IMG/VR virus record: IMGVR_UViG_3300044296_000098
Coordinates: 1-57,672 of that record
DNA: 57,672 nt
Source: a virus
Taxonomy: Duplodnaviria; Caudoviricetes
Strand: one strand, 5' to 3'
Shown one piece after another: positions 35,619 through 50,647 of the stretch; the stretch's first letter is position 1, and each line of letters begins with the position of its first letter. The notes below the pieces were generated by a model. It made no database searches. It saw only the letters and a list, made by a program, of their open reading frames with translations, and had not been told where the DNA came from. The translations under genes and the position numbers were made by a program.

Positions 35619-35968
35619 CCGCCGTGGCCGCGGCCACCGCTTTAGCCTTGACCTTGGCGACAACCGTCGCCCAGGCCAAACCTTGCCCCCACGACCTTGC
35701 TAGCTGGTATGGCGCACGCCATGCCGGACACCTGACGGCCAACGGCGAGAGGTTCAACCCGCGCGCCATGACCGCCGCCAGCCGTCGCTGGCCCCTCGGC
35801 TCCCGTGTGCTGGTTTACGCCAACCACCGCGCCGTCGTGGTCCGCATCAATGACCACGGGCCGTACCACCACCGCTGTCGGGTGCTGGATCTGTCGCACG
35901 CCGCGGCCCGTCACCTCGGCGTCGCGCATGCCGGCGTGGTACCGGTCAAGACGTGGAGGGTGGATTAG
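35606..35968 (+). CDS. RlpA-like (double-psi beta-barrel) lytic transglycosylase with signal peptide
   Basis: ASWYG...TANGERFN...TAA...PLGS...VVVRINDHGPY...LDLSHAAA..LG. Confidence 0.88.
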   Translation: MATVTAVAAATALALTLATTVAQAKPCPHDLASWYGARHAGHLTANGERFNPRAMTAASRRWPLGSRVLVYANHRAVVVRINDHGPYHHRCRVLDLSHAAARHLGVAHAGVVPVKTWRVD

Positions 35969-38256
35969 ACCCCATTGGCCTTCGAGTAGGCGGCGGCGAC
36001 CTCAGCCGCCGTCGGGATAGCCGACGCGAGAGACCCCGGTCGCACCCACAGCCGGGGTCTCCGACCGTCCGGCGCCACCGTGTTGTTGACCCGGCCCTCG
36101 ATCAGGTTCGGGTGCCGGATGTATCCAATTGCCTTCATTACCGCGTCCCACTTGGCCGGCGGGGCCTTGCCCCGCATGCGCCGCTGGTCGAGCATCATGC
36201 CCAGCCAGTGCGATGAGACAAACCCGCCGCGGAACCCAATCTCGTCGCTGGCAATCGCTTCCAGTATCGCCTGTTCGACCGGCCCCAGGCTGGCCTCGAT
36301 CGCCGCGGCGGTGCTCGATGTGAGGGGCGCCCGGTGGCAATCGGTGGCGGGGTTCAGGTGGCCCGGGATCCGGTAATTCCGAAGGTAATGGTTCCAGTAG
36401 GCGAACCCGTTGTTGCCCCTCGCCCAGCGGTACAGCTCGGGGAAGTATGTCCCGTCCATGCCATCGCGCACGAGGTGCGCGGCTTCCTGCTGCTCGCAGT
36501 GTATTATGCAATACCGGCGGTCATCTAACGTCTTAGGCAACGCATCTTTATGGTTAGTATTGATCAAGAAGTTAGCGCGGTTGTCCCCCATGTATTGGTT
36601 CTCACCTTTACGCTGTATCTCGATCCGTAGGTTCGTTATCAGCACCTTGAGAACGTCAATCATGTCCACGCGGTCTCTGACTGCTAGCTCCTCGACAACC
36701 GCTAGCAGCGTGCCCGGCACCCAACCGTTAAACTTGTTGGCGATGTCGTTCGACGCCACGGTGTGGCTGTATTTCTCCCCGACGCAGTACATGGCGGCTT
36801 CGGTCAGCAGGCTCTTGCCGTTACCCTCGCATCCCTGGATCACGAGCGCCCATTGGAATTTGACGCCGGGGTGCTGGACGATAGCCGCGTGAGTGCAGAG
36901 CGCGATCTCCCGGTCTCGATCCGTCCGGAACATCTTGTCCAGATGCCGCAGCATCGGGGTTACATCGCCTGGCACTGCCGGCGTTTCGTCAGGCACGTAA
37001 GTGTTATACAGGGTCCGCTTGCCTACGGTGACGGCGCAACGTGCCGGCAGCTCAGGACGGAAGCAGATGCCGTCGGCCCGCAGGTGAGGCGCGAACACAT
37101 TGTGGTTGAAGCCATCCCAGGCGCTGCGGGTTGTCTTGCCTTGATGGTCAAGCACGAAGATGTTCCCGCCGTAGCGGGAGTTGGCGTCGAACTGCGTCTT
37201 AGTCAGCAGATTGCCGTCGGGAACGGCGATGCGCTCGAGCTCCTCGATCCACACGCACCCGGCGAAATACTTGCTATAATCATTGGCGCCGACGACTTGG
37301 CCGCGAGCTATGTCAGCGGTCGTGGCGCCGTCGGTAGGGGGGATGACCGTCACCGCGCCCGAGGCGTACACTTCAGTCACGAGAGCGCACGCTTTTAGGA
37401 CCGTGCGAGGGATATAATCTTCGCGGAGCCACTTCTGCCTCACCAGCGCCGACCGTTCCATGAGGCGGCGGATGCGGTCGCAGTCCCTGCCTGTCCAGTA
37501 GACGAGGTGGCAGGCTAAAGCACTGTCGGCCGAGCTGGCGTCGTACGCGCGGTTCTGGGTTCCTGTCTCCGGGAAGAACTTCCCGAGTACCGCCTCGTCG
37601 CCCTCCCACAACGCCCGGAAGGACGCCTTGCCCCCGAAGGCGGCAGAAGGGCTTTGCCTCGTCATGGCGAGTTTGAGCAGCTCGTCATCGTCTTCTGGCC
37701 CGGCCCATTCTTCGCAAGGAGTATCCGTCCAACCGGTATGATCGGCCTGCCCTCCGCCGTCAGCGCGCGGCGGGAAGTGCTCCGCTGCAAGCGCCAGGAT
37801 CTCGGGCGCTTCGGCGTCCATGTCGCCGCTGGCATCGGTCCCGGTCAGCGCGATGGCCCGCTTGCAGCTGAACAGGTCCACACCGAGCAGCGTCTTGCTC
37901 TTGATCGAGTGCGGCGGCAGTTCGCCCTTGCCGATGATATGCAAACCGCGACCGCTCTGGCTGACCTCGATGTAGCAACCGGCGAACCGCCGGCACAGGT
38001 CGACCGCAGTCTTAGACCACTCGCCGTTGTGGAAGGCGTTGTCGATGTCGATCGCCCAGTGCGTGCGTTCGGGCGGCAGGACATAAGCCACGCCGTAGGG
38101 CGGGCCGAATAGCGCCGCCGCTAAAGCCGCTTGAGCTTTAGGCACCCAGTATTCCGGGTTGTGCGCGTTGACCACGCCCCCGGTCAGCGGTGAAACCGGT
38201 AACTTCTCCGTCCGGTTATTTTCGCCTGGGACTAACTTATAGCACAGGTAGGGCAT
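35965..38256 (-). CDS. Primase-polymerase fused to an SF3-type helicase/NTPase
   Basis: AIDIDN and EVSQSGRGLHII (prim-pol), DASSADSALA, IQGCEGNGKS (Walker A), VVEEL, INTNH, DDRRY. Confidence 0.88.
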   Translation of the reverse strand: MPYLCYKLVPGENNRTEKLPVSPLTGGVVNAHNPEYWVPKAQAALAAALFGPPYGVAYVLPPERTHWAIDIDNAFHNGEWSKTAVDLCRRFAGCYIEVSQSGRGLHIIGKGELPPHSIKSKTLLGVDLFSCKRAIALTGTDASGDMDAEAPEILALAAEHFPPRADGGGQADHTGWTDTPCEEWAGPEDDDELLKLAMTRQSPSAAFGGKASFRALWEGDEAVLGKFFPETGTQNRAYDASSADSALACHLVYWTGRDCDRIRRLMERSALVRQKWLREDYIPRTVLKACALVTEVYASGAVTVIPPTDGATTADIARGQVVGANDYSKYFAGCVWIEELERIAVPDGNLLTKTQFDANSRYGGNIFVLDHQGKTTRSAWDGFNHNVFAPHLRADGICFRPELPARCAVTVGKRTLYNTYVPDETPAVPGDVTPMLRHLDKMFRTDRDREIALCTHAAIVQHPGVKFQWALVIQGCEGNGKSLLTEAAMYCVGEKYSHTVASNDIANKFNGWVPGTLLAVVEELAVRDRVDMIDVLKVLITNLRIEIQRKGENQYMGDNRANFLINTNHKDALPKTLDDRRYCIIHCEQQEAAHLVRDGMDGTYFPELYRWARGNNGFAYWNHYLRNYRIPGHLNPATDCHRAPLTSSTAAAIEASLGPVEQAILEAIASDEIGFRGGFVSSHWLGMMLDQRRMRGKAPPAKWDAVMKAIGYIRHPNLIEGRVNNTVAPDGRRPRLWVRPGSLASAIPTAAEVAAAYSKANGV

Positions 38257-45935: not shown

Positions 45936-48217
45936 CCCCGCCCCCTCCGCCTGCGCTCTCCGACCTCCCTGCGGGATACCAGCTTCGTGCCGGCCGGGGC
46001 TTCAGCACTATCCTCCCGGACATGGACTTCGAGACCTATAGCGAGGCGGGCCTCGTGTGGGACGAAGGCAGGCAGAGGTGGCGGGCGCCCGACCGCGCTC
46101 CCAGCACGAAGCGCAGCATCAGCCTAGTGGGCGCGGCGCGGTATGCGGAGCACCCGTCCACTCAAGTGCTATGCCTAGCTTATGATCTCAAGGACGGCCG
46201 GGGCCGCCGGCAATGGGTTCCAGGCATGGAGCCGCCCGTCGACCTGTTCGCCTACCTTGCCACAGGAGGCCCGATCGAGGCTTGGAACGTCAGCTTTGAG
46301 CGGCACATCTGGGAGAAAGTCTGTGTTCCGCGCATGGGGTGGCCCCAGATCCACCGGAGCCAATGGCGGTGCGCCATGGCCAAAGCTCGGGCCTTCGCGT
46401 TGCCCGGCGCCCTGGCTAACGCAGCCTCCGTGGTCCATGCATCGGCGCAGAAAGACCCCGCCGGCACTCGGCTGCTGAACAAGTTTAGCGTGCCGCGGAA
46501 CCCGACCCTCAAGGACAAACGACTGCGGCTGGATCCGGCCACGGATCCGGAAGGGCCGGCGCTGTATGCCTACAACGTCCAAGACATCGTGGCCGAGGCG
46601 GAGGTGTCCTCGCTCGTCCCTGACTTGCAGCCGGACGAGCAGGAATGGTGGTTCGTCGACCAGGAGATTAACGCCCGCGGCGTCCAGATCGATATGGAGA
46701 GCGTGAACGCCGCGATCTCCATCGTGGAAGAGACGCTCAAGCGGTATAACGGGGAGCTGGCAGTGTTGACCAATGGGGCGGTTTCTTCAGCCAGCGAAGT
46801 GCAGAAACTTACCGGTTGGCTCGGCGCGTATGGCCTGCATCTGTCCTCCCTCGACGAAGAGGCGGTAGGCGCGGCTCTAGCGCGTAAGGACTTGCACCCC
46901 ACAGTGCGGCGGGCACTAGAGATACGGGCCCTCGTGGGAAGCGCCAGCGTCAAGAAGCTGTTCGCTATGGAGCATATGGTCTGCCGCGACGGTCGCCTGC
47001 GTGACCTATACGTCTACCACGGGGCTAGAACCGGCCGGGCGACAGGCGGTTCCGTGCAGCCTACCAACCTTCCTAACCACGGCCCGGCAGTGCGGAAGTG
47101 CGTGTCCTGCGGCAAGCACTTCGGGGAGGCCGCAGGACGGTGCCCGTGGTGCGCGGCAGCGCCGACACCTGCCACACAAGAGTGGTCCGCATCTGCGATG
47201 GAAGACGCCATAGCGGTCCTCCGGAGCGGGTCGCTCGATCTGACCGAGATGGCCTTCGGCCCCGCCTTACCGGCTATCAGCGGGTGCCTCCGAGGCATGT
47301 TCGTGGCCGCACCCGGCCACGACCTCATAGCGTCGGACTACAGCGCGATCGAGGCCGTGGTGCTGGCGGAACTGGCGGGCGAGAAGTGGCGTCAAGAGGT
47401 GTTCCGGACGCACGGTAAGATATACGAGATGAGCGCCAGCAAGATCAGCGGCGTTCCGTTCGAGGAAATGATGGAGCACCGTAAACGCACGGGGCAGCAT
47501 CATCCCCTCCGGAAAACGATCGGTAAAGTAGCGGAACTGGCCAGCGGGTACCAGGGCTGGATAGGCGCGTGGAAAGCATTTGGCGCCGACGAGTTCATGT
47601 CCGAAGAGGAGATGAAGACCTCCATTCTCAAATGGCGGGCGGAGTCTCCAGCGATCGTAGAGTTCTGGGGCGGTCAAACCCGGCGCGTGGCGTTCGGCGG
47701 CGTCGTTCGGGAATACTACGGGGTCGAAGGCGCAGCCGTCATGGCGGTGCTGTCGCCGGGTAAAGAGTTCTCGTTTCGTGGCGTAACTTACGTTTGCCAG
47801 GGAGACATTCTCTACTGCCGGTTGTTGTCGGGCCGGTATTTGACCTACCACAGCCCTCGGCTGGAGCCGAGCCAAAAGAGGGTTGGAGAATGGTCGCTGA
47901 GCTACGCCGGGTGGAATACGAACCCGAAGAACGGCCCGATTGGTTGGATACGTATGCAAACGTGGGGAGGCCGTTTAGTCGAAAATATTATTCAGGCGAC
48001 CGCGCGAGATATTCAACGAGAGGCGCTTGTCAAACAGGAACGGGCCGGTTATAAGATCGTCCTACACGTTTACGACGAGAACGTAGCCGAAGTTCCTGAT
48101 GGCTGGGGTTCCGTCGAAGAGTTTGAAAAGATCATGTCTACTATGCCCGCATGGGCGGCCGATTGGCCTGTTCGTGCGGCGGGTGGATGGCGCGGTAAAC
48201 GCTATCGAAAGGACTAA
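45932..48217 (+). CDS. DNA polymerase family A with 3'-5' exonuclease
   Basis: DFETYS, AWNVSFER, YNVQDI, GARTGR, ASDYSAIE (motif A), GKVAELASGYQG (B), ENIIQATARD, HVYDE (C). Confidence 0.93.
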   Translation: MTPPPPPALSDLPAGYQLRAGRGFSTILPDMDFETYSEAGLVWDEGRQRWRAPDRAPSTKRSISLVGAARYAEHPSTQVLCLAYDLKDGRGRRQWVPGMEPPVDLFAYLATGGPIEAWNVSFERHIWEKVCVPRMGWPQIHRSQWRCAMAKARAFALPGALANAASVVHASAQKDPAGTRLLNKFSVPRNPTLKDKRLRLDPATDPEGPALYAYNVQDIVAEAEVSSLVPDLQPDEQEWWFVDQEINARGVQIDMESVNAAISIVEETLKRYNGELAVLTNGAVSSASEVQKLTGWLGAYGLHLSSLDEEAVGAALARKDLHPTVRRALEIRALVGSASVKKLFAMEHMVCRDGRLRDLYVYHGARTGRATGGSVQPTNLPNHGPAVRKCVSCGKHFGEAAGRCPWCAAAPTPATQEWSASAMEDAIAVLRSGSLDLTEMAFGPALPAISGCLRGMFVAAPGHDLIASDYSAIEAVVLAELAGEKWRQEVFRTHGKIYEMSASKISGVPFEEMMEHRKRTGQHHPLRKTIGKVAELASGYQGWIGAWKAFGADEFMSEEEMKTSILKWRAESPAIVEFWGGQTRRVAFGGVVREYYGVEGAAVMAVLSPGKEFSFRGVTYVCQGDILYCRLLSGRYLTYHSPRLEPSQKRVGEWSLSYAGWNTNPKNGPIGWIRMQTWGGRLVENIIQATARDIQREALVKQERAGYKIVLHVYDENVAEVPDGWGSVEEFEKIMSTMPAWAADWPVRAAGGWRGKRYRKD

Positions 48218-48221
48218 CGCA

Positions 48222-48806
48222 ATGCAAACGTCCGTTGCTACCGTTACGATCAGAGGGATCACTTCGCTTTCGCAGTCGCGGAGGCATGCGGACCCGAGGA
48301 AGGAAGGTGAGAACCCGGAGGATTACGACAACCGAACTTGGCGTTCCAAACTGAGCGTCGAGAACGGTTCGGTCGTGTTGCCCGCGCATGGGGTTCACCA
48401 GGCGATTGCCGCCGCGGCAAAGTATTCTAAGCGGCAGATCCCCGGCCAAGGGAAGTCCACTTGGACCGCCAAGTTCATGGCCGGTATCGCCATCCTGGAG
48501 GATCCTCGCCTCAACATTGACCCGGAGACCGTTTCCAGCGTCGTCATCAGCGCGAATTCGGACGGCGTGCGTGGGTCCGGCCGGCGTGTCCCTCGCCGCT
48601 ACCCGATGATCCCGGAGTGGCAAACCACGTTCGAGGTTTATATTCTCGACCCCATCATCACGGAGAGCGTGTTCACCGAGATGCTGACCATTTCCGGCAT
48701 GTTCATCGGCCTTGGTCGGTTCCGGCCGGAAAAGGGCGGCACCAACGGCCGGTTCCAGCTCGTGGAACTCCAGTGGCAAGATAACCGTCAGCTTCTAGCT
48801 GCATAG
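48222..48806 (+). CDS. Solitary Cas7/RAMP-like protein (194 aa), putative RNA-binding effector of the adjacent array
   Basis: N-terminal strand VTIRGITSL; VLPAHGVHQAI resembles RAMP IPGSSLKGAL; basic hairpin VRGSGRRVPRRYP; C-terminal Gly-rich loop IGLGRFRPEKGGTNGRF. Confidence 0.65.
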   Translation: MQTSVATVTIRGITSLSQSRRHADPRKEGENPEDYDNRTWRSKLSVENGSVVLPAHGVHQAIAAAAKYSKRQIPGQGKSTWTAKFMAGIAILEDPRLNIDPETVSSVVISANSDGVRGSGRRVPRRYPMIPEWQTTFEVYILDPIITESVFTEMLTISGMFIGLGRFRPEKGGTNGRFQLVELQWQDNRQLLAA

Positions 48807-48812
48807 AGGCTT

Positions 48813-48849
48813 GAGGTGCCTGTTCCTTCCCCCGTGGTATGGGCACCTC
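48813..48849 (+). other. Leader hairpin between the RAMP-like gene and the array
   Basis: GAGGTGCC...GGCACCTC inverted repeat. Confidence 0.6.
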
Positions 48850-48851
48850 GC

Positions 48852-49418
48852 CCTTCCCATGCCGTCAGCCTCAGTGGCTGGCGGGATGCGAAGGCATCCA
48901 TCTCCGCCCCGCTGCGCTCCGCAACGCTGCGCCTCGCCTCGCAACGCAACGCAACGGCCTTCCCATGCCGTCAGCCTCAGCGGCTGGCGGGATGCGAAGG
49001 CATCCATCTCCGCGCCGCCTCGCGCCGCCTCGCTACGCTGCGCTCCGCAACGCAACGCAACGCAACGCAACGGCCTTCCCATGCCGTCAGCCTCAGCGGC
49101 TGGCGGGATGCGAAGGCATCCATCGCCGCCACGCCTCGCATCGCACCGCATCGCACCGCAACGCACCGCAACGCAACGCAACGGCCTTCCCATGCCGTCA
49201 GCCTCAGTGGCTGGCGGGATGCGAAGGCATCCATCGACGCTTCGCCTCGCCGCGCTCCGCAACGCAACGCAACGACCTTCCCATGCCGTCAGCCTACGCG
49301 GCTGGCGGGATGCGAAGGCATCTATCGCCGCTCCGCTTCGCAACGCAGCGCTCCGCGCCGCGACGCCACGCAGCGCAACGCCTCGCCACGCCGCGCCCCG
49401 CAACGCCCCGTAACGTAA
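48852..49418 (+). repeat. Array of five 51-nt hairpin repeats, each followed by a tract of CGC-NN pentamers (putative guide-RNA array)
   Basis: Repeat CCTTCCCATGCCGTCAGCC-TCAGY-GGCTGGCGGGATGCGAAGGCATCCATC at 48852, 48958, 49074, 49185 and 49276; tracts of 10, 12, 11, 7 and 16 CGCNN units. Confidence 0.95.
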
Positions 49419-49430
49419 AGGAACCTAACC

Positions 49431-49913
49431 GTGGCTCTGACGTCTGCTGATATCCGTGTGCTTACCGATGCCATGCTCAGCACTCCGGTCGGGGAAGTAA
49501 TCACCTTCTTCGAGCTGTCGAAGGCTCTTGGGGCTAACGTCAAAGCCCGGCAGTACCTTATCCACGGCGCGATTAAGCTCGCCAGTAAGGAAGCCGGCGC
49601 GATCTTCACCAGCGTCCGTTCGGTCGGCTACAAGCGGCTCCCCGCCGAAGCCGCAGCGGCTGTGGGGTCGCACGCTCGAAACCGCGTCCGGTCGACCGCA
49701 AGGAAAGCCTCAGGCATCATCACACGGGCCGTCGAACGCGCTAACGACATGTCTGATGAAGCTCGACGCAAAGCCATGACTGAGGTCTCCGCCCTCCAGC
49801 TGCTGAACACTCTTGCCGCTGATAGGACGGTTAAGGCCGTTCAACCGACCGATAAGCCGCAACCGGTAGCCATGACCCTGCGGTCAATGGCGGCGTCATT
49901 GGGGATTACGTGA
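49431..49913 (+). CDS. Putative winged-helix DNA-binding protein, candidate accessory of the RAMP/array locus
   Basis: GTG start with AAGGA RBS right after the array; ITFFELSKALG and FTSVRSVGYKRL wing-like motif. Confidence 0.7.
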   Translation: MALTSADIRVLTDAMLSTPVGEVITFFELSKALGANVKARQYLIHGAIKLASKEAGAIFTSVRSVGYKRLPAEAAAAVGSHARNRVRSTARKASGIITRAVERANDMSDEARRKAMTEVSALQLLNTLAADRTVKAVQPTDKPQPVAMTLRSMAASLGIT

Positions 49914-50167
49914 TGGTTTACGGTCCTGAACACGATCGACCTTCCAGAGGCATGGGGTCTTACGGAACCGAGAAGTCCGTTCCAGACATGCCAAAATGCG
50001 GTAATTGCCGATGGCTTATTGACTACGGCAATGACCTAAAAGGGGTTTTGGGGACGTGCAGGGTTCCTTTACCACCTTTTCGCGTTTCTGGAACGGAAAT
50101 GTACCAAGCTCCTGTCAAGCATCACTACTGGTGTGTTCTGTGGGAGAAAAACAATGTCTGCCCGTAA
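49910..50167 (+). CDS. Small Cys-rich hypothetical protein
   Basis: CGNCRW...GTC...WC; GTGA overlap with the upstream stop. Confidence 0.55.
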   Translation: MMVYGPEHDRPSRGMGSYGTEKSVPDMPKCGNCRWLIDYGNDLKGVLGTCRVPLPPFRVSGTEMYQAPVKHHYWCVLWEKNNVCP

Positions 50168-50333
50168 ATGTGAGACCTGTAGGCATTGGAGCCCTTCCAA
50201 TAATCCCGGTATTGGCTATTGCGATTGGACCGTCGAAGCAGACGTACCGGAATGGCTAGTAACTTCTTCGGCTTCTATGCGGGGGTTCGAGGGGTCTACT
50301 TGCCGGGTTTGGTCTCCTGGAAACGACCGCTAA
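50154..50333 (+). CDS. Small Cys-rich hypothetical protein
   Basis: GGAG RBS; CETCRHW...GYC...CRVW. Confidence 0.6.
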   Translation: MSARKCETCRHWSPSNNPGIGYCDWTVEADVPEWLVTSSASMRGFEGSTCRVWSPGNDR

Positions 50334-50419
50334 TTCCCTTTCGCTTTGGGGGTGGCCGCGGTTTGCGGGGCAGCAGGCATCGACTGCATCCTCCCCCAAT
50401 TCCTGACAGGAGAAACACG

Positions 50420-50647
50420 ATGGCTCACGTTGACAGCGCCTCCGACGATCGCACTGCGAACAACGCCGTGCGGCACCAATACCGCGTCCTATCCGATGCG
50501 GAGAAGCAGCAGATGGTTGACTTGAAAGACCTTGGCGCGGCGTTCATCCAGAAGTGCAAGGACATCGGCGGCAGTCGGGAATTGTCGATCGCCATCACCA
50601 AGGCCGAGGAAGCCGTGATGTGGGCCGTCAAGCATGTGACAGCCTAG
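50420..50647 (+). CDS. Acb2/Tad1-like helical hairpin protein (putative immune-signal sponge)
   Basis: QYRVLSDAEKQQMVDLK...SRELSIAITKAEEAVMWAVKHVT; AGGAG RBS. Confidence 0.7.
   Translation: MAHVDSASDDRTANNAVRHQYRVLSDAEKQQMVDLKDLGAAFIQKCKDIGGSRELSIAITKAEEAVMWAVKHVTA

What the first reader, a model, noticed from the sequence alone, without database searches (positions are those of the whole stretch)
48852..49326. The 51-nt repeat is a conserved RNA structure that points to the plus strand
The repeat folds as CCUUC-C-CAU-G-CCGUCAGCC / 5-nt loop / GGCUGGCGG-G-AUG-C-GAAGG. An overlapping alternative hairpin GGAUGC-GAAG-GCAUCC is also possible. Differences among the five copies fall in the loop (TCAGT, TCAGC, TACGC) plus one C-to-T change that becomes a G-U pair in the alternative hairpin. 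The G-U wobbles work only on the plus strand, co-directional with the RAMP-like gene. Inference: the stem is a processing or capping handle (for example for a host RNase III-type enzyme) that releases unit guides of about 90-145 nt.
Basis: partly seen in the sequence, partly recalled or inferred. Interest (0 to 1): 0.7.

Follow-up and report, generated by a model that had tools for sequence, protein, structure and literature searches.

The report
Phage VIPR guide-RNA array with hairpin tails
The 51-base hairpin repeat is the constant structured part of a row of phage guide RNAs of the recently described VIPR kind, a simpler relative of CRISPR that phages are reported to use to silence rival genetic elements.

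Summary
Five near-identical 51-nt hairpins lie at 48852-49326 (0 expected by chance).

The stretches between them are not free spacers. They are perfect 5-nt-period (CGCNN)n runs of 10, 12, 11, 7 and 16 units, found nowhere else in this 57.7-kb phage genome.

The gene just upstream (48222-48806) folds as a Cas7-like RAMP. Its family profile matches the solved SUSP1 Vipr protein. The gene just downstream (49431-49913) is a winged-helix protein distantly like the SUSP1 gene that follows vipr.

This matches the VIPR systems of three 2026 preprints: one Vipr protomer per pentamer holds a fixed triplet, the variable NN bases read target DNA, and a structured tail caps the RNA.

Among 58 related loci, 51 carry CGC runs, always on the vipr coding strand. 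Tail sequences differ between lineages but keep hairpins with compensatory changes. G-U pairs favour the plus strand (34 against 5 cells in two tail classes).

[quoted passage not shown] I rate it a new member of a known kind, with CGC replacing the published GGY.

The parts
48222..48806 (+). vipr: 194-aa minimal Cas7-like RAMP. An AAGGA ribosome-binding site lies 7 nt before the ATG.
   Evidence: AlphaFold model has pLDDT 86 and pTM 0.82. Foldseek PDB top hits are type VII Cas7, Csm3 and Cmr4, with 176 hits at E<=1e-3. The family profile hits PDB 36pp_D 'SUSP1 Vipr protein' at E 9e-5. hhalign against SUSP1 ALH47069 gives prob 90.9, E 1e-6. Start-site sequence read.
48813..48849 (+). Leader hairpin GAGGTGCC...GGCACCTC between the vipr stop codon and the first repeat.
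   Evidence: Read from the sequence. Its arms resemble the last hairpin (GGTGCC-N4-GGCACC) of the class A tails of relatives. No function was tested.
48852..48902 (+). Hairpin repeat copy 1. No pentamer tract lies before it.
48905..48954 (+). Tract 1: 10 x CGCNN (NN = CC TG TC AA TG CT CT AA AA AA).
48958..49008 (+). Hairpin repeat copy 2.
49011..49070 (+). Tract 2: 12 x CGCNN. The last five NN are AA.
   Evidence: An internal 10-nt duplication is shown.
49074..49124 (+). Hairpin repeat copy 3.
49127..49181 (+). Tract 3: 11 x CGCNN.
49185..49235 (+). Hairpin repeat copy 4.
49238..49272 (+). Tract 4: 7 x CGCNN.
49276..49326 (+). Hairpin repeat copy 5 (loop TACGC; C-to-T change in the alternative hairpin).
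49329..49408 (+). Tract 5: 16 x CGCNN. No hairpin follows it, and it ends 22 nt before the next start codon.
49431..49913 (+). Candidate vap (VIPR accessory protein): 160 aa, an N-terminal winged helix followed by long helices.
   Evidence: A homologue follows vipr and its array in 38 of 46 non-redundant loci. The model has pLDDT 88. Foldseek gives only weak winged-helix matches, best E 0.07. hhalign against the SUSP1 gene after vipr (ALH47068) gives prob 64.5, E 6e-5 over 99 columns.

Best explanation
Region 48222-49913 is a phage VIPR locus (Viral Interference Programmable Repeat). The vipr gene, the array and the downstream gene are most likely read as one + strand transcript.

Each (CGCNN)n tract is a guide. 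By analogy with SUSP1, one Vipr protomer binds per pentamer, holds the fixed CGC, and presents the two variable bases. These pair with double-stranded target DNA in a gapped register and silence a competing phage, prophage or satellite.

The 51-nt hairpin, together with the constant (CGCAA)3-CGG before it, is the invariable structured module of the guide RNAs. Most likely it is the 3' tail that caps the preceding tract and marks where the next one begins. That gives four complete units of 89-114 nt, an orphan leading hairpin, and a tail-less last tract that runs into the ribosome-binding site of the downstream winged-helix gene.

Shown here: the protein fold and its family link, the pentamer code, conservation across relatives, covariation in the tails, and replacement of a tract beside an identical vipr gene.

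Inferred only: transcription, strand, RNA ends, protein binding, DNA targeting and silencing.
For: 1. Protein. The model is a Cas7-like RAMP. The family profile hits SUSP1 Vipr in the PDB at E 9e-5. hhalign gives prob 90.9.

2. Code.
- All 56 pentamers in the window have a perfect CGC, and there are no such runs elsewhere on that strand.
- In 106 unique tracts (1541 pentamers) from the window and 46 relatives, the base frequencies are C .96, G .93, C .98, and all 16 NN dinucleotides are used. Tracts are 8-30 units long.
- The published vrRNAs are 9-16 pentamers of a fixed GGY plus a variable NN, followed by a 3' tail. Variant consensus forms NNNGG, YNNNG and NNNNG are also reported (10.64898/2026.04.26.720920, Results and Methods section 20).

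3. Context. 51 of 58 related loci have CGC runs of 4 or more units, upstream and/or downstream of vipr and on its coding strand. Only 3 rows show GCG runs, each lying within or next to a CGC run. The two-gene pair is kept in 38 of 46 loci.

4. SUSP1. All YNNGG runs lie on the vipr coding strand, one upstream and the rest downstream.

5. Register. The HMM alignment puts SUSP1 G-D177-W178-R179-P on this clade's G165-R166-F167-R168-P169. The cryo-EM preprint says D177 reads G1, W178 stacks on G2, and R179 lines the pyrimidine-only Y3 pocket. So bases 2 and 3 (G, C) and their readers are kept, while base 1 (G to C) and its reader (D to R) both change.

6. Tails are RNA structures.
- Class A (20 distinct copies from 8 loci): 98.5% of cells paired, and 5 pairs changed on both sides. 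Counts are 446 Watson-Crick, 24 G-U and 2 A-C.
- Class C (9 copies, one locus): 95.7% paired, and 4 pairs changed on both sides. Counts are 145 Watson-Crick, 10 G-U and 3 A-C.
- Class B, the window's own type: the same interrupted hairpin, with a covarying outer stem (CCUUC/GAAGG in the window, CUGCG/CGCAG in L056, UCCG/CGGA in L027 and L049).

7. Guide replacement. L011 and L013 have 100% identical vipr genes. Their first tract is entirely different, but the sequence is identical again from CAACGCAACG into the tail.
Against: - No RNA data. No listed sequencing run holding this DNA is on record as RNA.
- The fixed triplet is CGC, not the published GGY. I could not see the supplementary figure and data that list the variant motifs and types.
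- No target was found under the published one-base-skip rule.
- Folding energies do not support the + strand. Raw MFE is lower on the - strand for 37 of 53 tails. Shuffle-normalised z-scores split 16 to 11 loci, p 0.82.
- Class B tails carry one G-U and one A-C each, so they are neutral on strand.
- On the 3'-tail reading, the window has one hairpin without a tract and one tract without a hairpin.
- The window's exact tail sequence was not found in any relative.
- The vap link to SUSP1 is weak (prob 64.5).
Confidence: 0.8

Rival explanations
1. Same VIPR system and same + strand, but the hairpin is a 5' handle or processing signal. Each guide RNA would be hairpin plus the following tract.
For: In the window every one of the 5 tracts is preceded by a hairpin, and none is left over. 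In L033 the single upstream unit reads hairpin, tract, then the vipr ribosome-binding site. The distance from hairpin end to first CGC is fixed at 2-4 nt.
Against: In SUSP1 the constant part is a 3' tail. In most relatives the first tract starts within a few bases of the vipr stop codon with no hairpin before it. In L011 against L013, conservation resumes at the 3' end of the tract and runs into the tail, while nothing is conserved 5' of the tract. The last three pentamers before every hairpin are the constant CGCAA.
Confidence: 0.25
2. Same system, but the guide RNAs are read from the - strand as (NNGCG)n followed by the hairpin. That gives five tidy tract-plus-3'-tail units.
For: On the - strand each of the 5 tracts is followed by a hairpin, with none left over. 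Raw folding energy is lower on the - strand in 37 of 53 tails.
Against: G-U against A-C counts in conserved helices are 34 to 5 in favour of +. In SUSP1 the runs lie on the vipr strand, and the construct used in that work carried vrRNA1 together with the vipr CDS. Tracts end a median of 26 nt before the vipr start and 31 nt before the vap start, so - strand RNAs would need promoters inside coding sequence at every array. GCG would put a purine in the pocket that is described as excluding purines. The energy difference disappears after shuffle normalisation.
Confidence: 0.08
3. A DNA-level element, such as replication-origin iterons or a protein-binding array in the replication module, with the hairpins acting as cruciforms or binding sites.
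For: The array sits among replication genes: exonuclease, single-strand-binding protein, methyltransferase and PolA. Short periodic repeats are typical of origins (recalled knowledge, not tested here).
Against: The flanking gene is a RAMP related to Vipr. G-U pairs are tolerated on one strand only. The NN positions are hypervariable between phages with identical vipr genes. Relatives have arrays on both sides of vipr whatever the neighbouring genes.
Confidence: 0.03

Closest known systems
VIPR system of Escherichia phage SUSP1 (called type II in bioRxiv 10.64898/2026.04.26.720920; structures in 10.64898/2026.04.26.720927)
   Same: A small Cas7-like Vipr protein. Pentamer tracts made of a fixed triplet plus a variable NN, on the vipr strand and flanking the gene. 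A constant structured module next to each tract. Units of about 100 nt. A small DNA-binding-type accessory gene. Phage-encoded.
   Different: The fixed triplet is CGC, not GGY. The tail is an interrupted hairpin with a competing 3' hairpin, not a pseudoknot. The array lies between vipr and the accessory gene rather than after both. The last 2-5 pentamers of each tract are the constant CGCAA. Gene-proximal tracts have no tail. There are no expression or target data.
Class 1 CRISPR-Cas Cas7 backbone with crRNA (types I, III, VII)
   Same: RAMP fold with G-rich loop. The top Foldseek hits are Cas7, Csm3 and Cmr4. The array alternates constant and variable parts, and the constant part forms a hairpin.
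   Different: No unique spacers. The variable part is itself a 5-nt-period repeat. Nothing else Cas-like appeared among the 27 window ORFs given to the Pfam, PHROGs or PADLOC scans; the other ORFs of the phage were not scanned. The gene set is two genes in a phage replication module.
Hammerhead-interspersed VIPR arrays (the same preprint's legend of fig. S19, seen as a text passage)
   Same: A structured RNA element sits between adjacent guide tracts.
   Different: Rfam scans of the window region and of 10 relatives found no ribozyme or other family at E<=1 that was more than a chance microRNA-type hit.
TRAP binding sites in Bacillus trp leader RNA: 11 (G/U)AG triplets with 2-3 nt spacers (recalled, no call)
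   Same: A fixed triplet with a period of about 5 nt, read by a protein oligomer with one subunit per triplet.
   Different: A different protein fold and a different role. It served only as an early lead here.

Membership tests
VIPR | Vipr protein: a minimal RAMP with RRM core, glycine-rich loop and thumb, related to known Vipr proteins | tested here: met
   Model pLDDT 86. Foldseek ranks Cas7-family chains first, E 7e-8. The profile hits SUSP1 Vipr 36pp_D at E 9e-5. hhalign prob 90.9. The glycine-rich motif GRFRPEKGGTNGRF is invariant or nearly so.
VIPR | Tandem pentamers with a fixed triplet and a hypervariable NN, flanking vipr on its strand | tested here: met
   Window: 56 of 56 pentamers have a perfect CGC. 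Family logo. 51 of 58 loci carry such runs. A tract is replaced beside an identical vipr gene.
VIPR | Fixed triplet is GGY (YNNGG) | tested here: not met
   The triplet is CGC, which is YNNCG in the preprint's notation. The preprint reports variant consensus forms including YNNNG. Whether CGC is among them needs its supplementary figure, which I could not see.
VIPR | An invariable structured tail 3' of the tract | tested here: inconclusive
   A constant structured hairpin adjoins every tract, and tails show covariation in relatives. Whether it is 3' of its tract depends on RNA ends that were not measured. The L011/L013 comparison favours 3'.
VIPR | An accessory vap gene beside vipr | tested here: met
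   A conserved 160-aa winged-helix-type gene is present in 38 of 46 loci. The link to the SUSP1 neighbour is weak (prob 64.5). That this SUSP1 gene is vap1 is my reading of the locus, not an annotation in the record.
VIPR | vrRNAs are expressed and bound by Vipr | not testable with these tools
   No RNA run is on record as holding this DNA.
VIPR | NN bases match natural targets under the one-base-skip rule | tested here: inconclusive
   No match above shuffled controls in the window and loci. No exact match in IMG/VR for three guides, nor in the metagenome collection. No match with up to 3 mismatches in 401 genomes of one class. The collection scans allow no mismatches, so absence proves little.
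CRISPR-Cas | Identical repeats separated by unique spacers, with cas1/cas2 or an effector module | tested here: not met
   The intervening stretches are pentamer repeats. PADLOC gave no hit for the four locus proteins. Nothing Cas-like appeared among the 27 window ORFs given to the Pfam, PHROGs or PADLOC scans; the other ORFs of the phage were not scanned.

The most novel reading that the evidence does not exclude
This clade would be a naturally re-coded VIPR, with three linked features.

1. The frame triplet has changed from GGY to CGC together with the G-loop residue that reads base 1 (Asp to Arg). That would be a ready-made pair for working out, and re-engineering, how the repeat frame is read.

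2. The tail is bistable. In the window and its class B relatives the long hairpin and a 3' hairpin (GGAUGx/xCAUCC) are mutually exclusive, and both are conserved. Class A tails likewise have one GGUGCC and two GGCACC. This could be a switch tied to processing or to filament assembly.

3. The tail-less tracts that end 20-30 nt before the vipr and vap start codons could be Vipr-binding operators in the mRNA leaders, letting the protein control its own synthesis and that of its partner.
Probability: 0.2. Interest if true: 0.7.

Novelty: new member of a known kind. Interest (0 to 1): 0.5.

Why it matters
VIPR systems were first reported in 2026 preprints, and the experiments I read were on E. coli and Pseudomonas phage systems.

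This locus belongs to a well-populated clade: 46 IMG/VR contigs, plus 9 genome contigs labelled mostly as Alphaproteobacteria.

The clade keeps the pentamer logic but uses CGC as the fixed triplet, hairpin tails of several lineage-specific kinds, and arrays of up to 21 tract runs around one vipr gene. It therefore gives natural variation for two open questions. How does the protein read the fixed triplet? What does the tail do?

It also shows that a reader with nothing but raw sequence can recognise such a locus.

The practical gain is annotation. The ORFs called across 48811-49450 in all three + frames are artefacts of a stop-free repeat, and the region should be annotated as non-coding guide RNAs.

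Tried and rejected
- Rfam at permissive thresholds, on the window region and on 10 relatives: only chance microRNA/snoRNA-type hits, no ribozyme.
- Exact hairpin pattern in IMG/VR: 0 matches.
- Covariance model of the five copies against 47 sources: it finds the window copies only. Other hits score 19 bits or less, with E 0.04 or worse.
- tblastn of Vipr against 50,697 phage records: no match at E 1e-3.
- Sequencing runs: 8 DNA holders in 6 studies, no RNA holder listed.
- Promoter and terminator scan of 47900-50300: nothing useful.
- Target searches, all negative or at background:
  - local scans with skip 0-3 for the 5 window guides
  - local scans for 94 guides from all loci, where shuffled-order controls did as well
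  - IMG/VR exact patterns for window tract 5 and for one guide each from L040 and L041
  - metagenome collection, 11 NN of tract 5
  - 401 genomes of the class of G001, with up to 3 mismatches.
- NN usage against codon-frame dinucleotide usage: the best correlations were r 0.61 (antisense of codon positions 1-2) and r 0.56 (sense positions 2-3). This is not decisive.
- Strand by folding energy: undecided.
- PADLOC on four locus proteins: no hit.
- Pfam on Vipr and the vap candidate: no family.
- Early ideas dropped once the Vipr match appeared: replication-origin iterons, a packaging site, a TRAP-like RNA site, and a protein-coding pentapeptide repeat.

Full report
**The observation.** The 43-nt core of the repeat occurs five times on the + strand, at 48852, 48958, 49074, 49185 and 49276, without a mismatch. 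None is expected in shuffles. Spacing is 106, 116, 111 and 91 nt. Aligned, the copies differ in the loop (TCAGT, TCAGC, TCAGC, TCAGT, TACGC). Copy 5 also has one C-to-T change in the 3' arm of the alternative hairpin and one G-to-A change just 5' of the repeat. Two copies folded on the - strand gave z -0.13 and -1.95.

**What lies between the repeats.** The intervening stretches are not unique spacers. They are runs of 10, 12, 11, 7 and 16 pentamers, each with a perfect CGC followed by two variable bases. No other such run exists on that strand of the window. The last three to five pentamers before each hairpin are the constant CGCAA. The ORFs that the mechanical list shows across 48811-49450 in all three + frames follow from a stop-free repeat.

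**Context.** The window is a whole IMG/VR phage record of 57,672 bp, estimated 99% complete. It encodes terminase, portal, primase and helicase. The array sits at the end of a + strand replication module: DUF2800 exonuclease, gp2.5-like single-strand-binding protein, C5 methyltransferase and PolA. Between PolA and the array lies a 194-aa gene (48222-48806, PHROG 4652, function unknown) with its own ribosome-binding site. A 160-aa gene starts 22 nt after the last pentamer.

**Relatives.** The 194-aa protein brought in 46 IMG/VR loci and 9 genome contigs. Most genome contigs are metagenome-assembled genomes labelled as Alphaproteobacteria. Two are isolate genomes, an Ancylobacter and a Rhizobium.
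- In 51 of 58 fetched loci there are CGC runs of at least four pentamers just upstream and/or downstream of the gene, on its coding strand. The 7 without runs are mostly the most divergent.
- Across 106 unique tracts (1541 pentamers), the three fixed positions are 93-98% C, G, C. The two variable positions use all 16 dinucleotides. Tract length is 8-30 units.
- The hairpin sequence itself is not conserved. Other lineages have other elements between their tracts, and a covariance model of the window's five copies finds nothing convincing elsewhere.

**Identity.**
- A profile of 32 family members hits one PDB entry, 36pp chain D, 'SUSP1 Vipr protein', at E 9e-5.
- The AlphaFold model (pLDDT 86, pTM 0.82) is most similar to Cas7-family RAMPs of type VII and type III CRISPR complexes, with E from 7e-8 and 176 hits at E<=1e-3.
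- In the SUSP1 genome the same profile finds one gene (E 8e-7). hhalign against it gives probability 90.9.

**What the preprints say.** Three 2026 preprints describe the system.
- 10.64898/2026.04.26.720920. I read the outline, all of Results, Methods sections 18 and 20, and passages. Phage VIPR systems consist of a minimal RAMP (Vipr) and vrRNAs of about 100 nt. Each vrRNA has 9-16 pentamers with a fixed GGY and a hypervariable NN, followed by an invariable structured 3' tail. The vrRNAs lie upstream and in arrays downstream of vipr, with an accessory vap gene alongside. The NN bases read double-stranded DNA with one base skipped per unit, and the complex represses competing phages and satellites. 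Seven types are reported, with variant consensus forms (NNNGG, YNNNG, NNNNG) and variant array architectures.
- 10.64898/2026.04.26.720927. I read the outline and sections 5 and 6. One protomer binds per repeat. D177 and H17 read G1. R138 and W178 hold G2. A pocket that includes R179 excludes purines at Y3. The 3' pseudoknot caps the RNA.
- 10.64898/2026.10.15.759431. I read the outline, the Introduction and passages. It shows competition between SUSP1 and a satellite.

**How the window compares.**
- Same: a Vipr-like RAMP; pentamer tracts of a fixed triplet plus NN on the vipr strand; a constant structured module beside each tract; units of 89-114 nt; a small accessory gene; a phage host.
- Accessory gene: it has homologues after vipr and its array in 38 of 46 non-redundant loci. 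It models as an N-terminal winged helix plus long helices (Foldseek matches are weak, best E 0.07). It aligns weakly with the SUSP1 gene that follows vipr (hhalign prob 64.5, E 6e-5).
- Different: the triplet is CGC; the tail is a hairpin rather than a pseudoknot; the array lies between the two genes.
- Register: read on the + strand, CGC keeps the G at position 2 and the pyrimidine at position 3 of GGY. The HMM alignment places SUSP1 D177-W178-R179 on R166-F167-R168 of this clade. So the readers of bases 2 and 3 are kept in kind, while base 1 and its reader both differ. This is an inference from an alignment, not a structure.

**Are the tails RNA structures, and on which strand?**
- Class A tails (20 distinct copies from 8 loci, 11 of them from L039) form three helices. 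98.5% of cells are paired, against 27-45% when partners are slid, and 5 pairs change on both sides. Of 476 cells, 446 are Watson-Crick, 24 are G-U on the + strand at 10 different pairs, 2 are A-C (these would be G-U on the - strand), and 4 are other.
- Class C tails (9 copies, all from L025) give 95.7% paired and 4 pairs changed on both sides, with 145 Watson-Crick, 10 G-U, 3 A-C and 4 other.
- Class B is the window's own type (L027, L029, L049, L056). It has the same interrupted long hairpin as its minimum-energy fold, with a covarying outer stem. The long hairpin is favoured by 0-8 kcal/mol. Class B carries about one G-U and one A-C per copy and says nothing on strand.
- Against the + strand: raw folding energy is lower on the - strand in 37 of 53 tails. 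The - strand is the G-rich one. After shuffle normalisation the strands are indistinguishable (16 of 27 loci favour +, p 0.82).
- For the + strand, beyond the G-U counts: the arrays are always co-oriented with vipr. SUSP1's YNNGG runs lie on the vipr strand, and the construct used in that work carried vrRNA1 with the vipr CDS. Tracts end a median of 26 nt before the vipr start (21 of 28 within 45 nt) and 31 nt before the vap start (22 of 27), which leaves no room for antisense promoters outside coding sequence.
- I put the + strand at about 0.85-0.9.

**Tail or handle?**
- L011 and L013 have identical vipr genes. Their first tract differs completely in length and NN content from the stop codon onward. 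Identity resumes at CAACGCAACG and continues through the tail. This is what a replaceable guide with a constant 3' tail looks like.
- In most relatives the first tract starts right after the vipr stop codon with no hairpin before it, and the last tract before a gene has no tail.
- In the window, though, each tract is preceded by a hairpin: the first hairpin has no tract before it, and the last tract has no hairpin after it. L033 likewise shows hairpin, tract, then gene.
- The hairpin may serve both neighbours. I favour the 3'-tail reading at about 60:40. How the ends are made is unknown: a search of the first preprint's main text for 'matur', 'process' and 'cleav' turned up no passage on vrRNA processing, and no ribozyme was detected.

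**Targets.** None was found.
- Local scans at skip 0-3 gave background values, and shuffled guides did as well.
- Exact patterns from window tract 5 and from two relatives' guides found nothing in IMG/VR or in the metagenome collection.
- Tract 5 with up to 3 mismatches found nothing in 401 genomes of one class.
- The large scans accept no mismatch, and tracts 1-4 have only 4-8 variable units. These blanks therefore weigh little. The skip rule remains untested for this clade.

**Verdict.** The finding is real. It is the constant hairpin module of a VIPR guide-RNA array, most likely on the + strand. The kind has been known since the 2026 preprints. This clade differs in its fixed triplet, its tail and its gene order. 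I therefore rate it a new member of a known kind.

Noticed in passing
window 50219-50647 (+): A 142-aa protein with an Acb2/Tad1 hairpin domain (Pfam PF24729, E 4.9e-17). Pfam names the family after Acb2 and Tad1, which I recall as anti-CBASS and anti-Thoeris signal sponges. It lies two genes after the VIPR locus.
   Followed up: no
L039 (IMG/VR contig), about 1.6 kb upstream to 1 kb downstream of vipr: 21 CGC tract runs with class A tails surround one vipr gene, far more than the four vrRNAs reported for SUSP1.
   Followed up: partly
L011 against L013, first 80 nt after vipr: The vipr genes are identical but the first guide tract is completely different, while the tail is identical. This looks like natural guide replacement.
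   Followed up: yes
window 49011-49033 and 49126-49183: Tracts 2 and 3 contain internal 10-nt tandem duplications (TRF period 10, 100% and 85% matches). Tracts may grow by slippage of two-pentamer units, so some units may not be selected guide positions.
   Followed up: no
L038-L051 class A tails (alignment A3): The invariant GGUGCC can pair with either of two invariant GGCACC copies, giving mutually exclusive helices. This parallels the competing hairpins in the window's tail.
   Followed up: partly
G004 contig 1, 4419599-4420191 (= L063, Rhizobium ruizarguesonis chromosome): The vipr homologue matches in two overlapping pieces (residues 1-45 and 45-197), and the locus has no CGC runs. It is probably a frameshifted remnant in a prophage.
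   Followed up: no
all tracts (106 unique): NN usage correlates best with the antisense of codon positions 1-2 of the phage's own genes (r 0.61) and with sense positions 2-3 (r 0.56). This is too weak to interpret.
   Followed up: partly
window 35965-38256 (-): The primase has an NrS-1 polymerase-type helix-bundle domain and a DUF5906 domain. It forms part of a replication set of PolA, a gp2.5-like single-strand-binding protein, an exonuclease and a primase, a combination I recall from phage T7.
   Followed up: no
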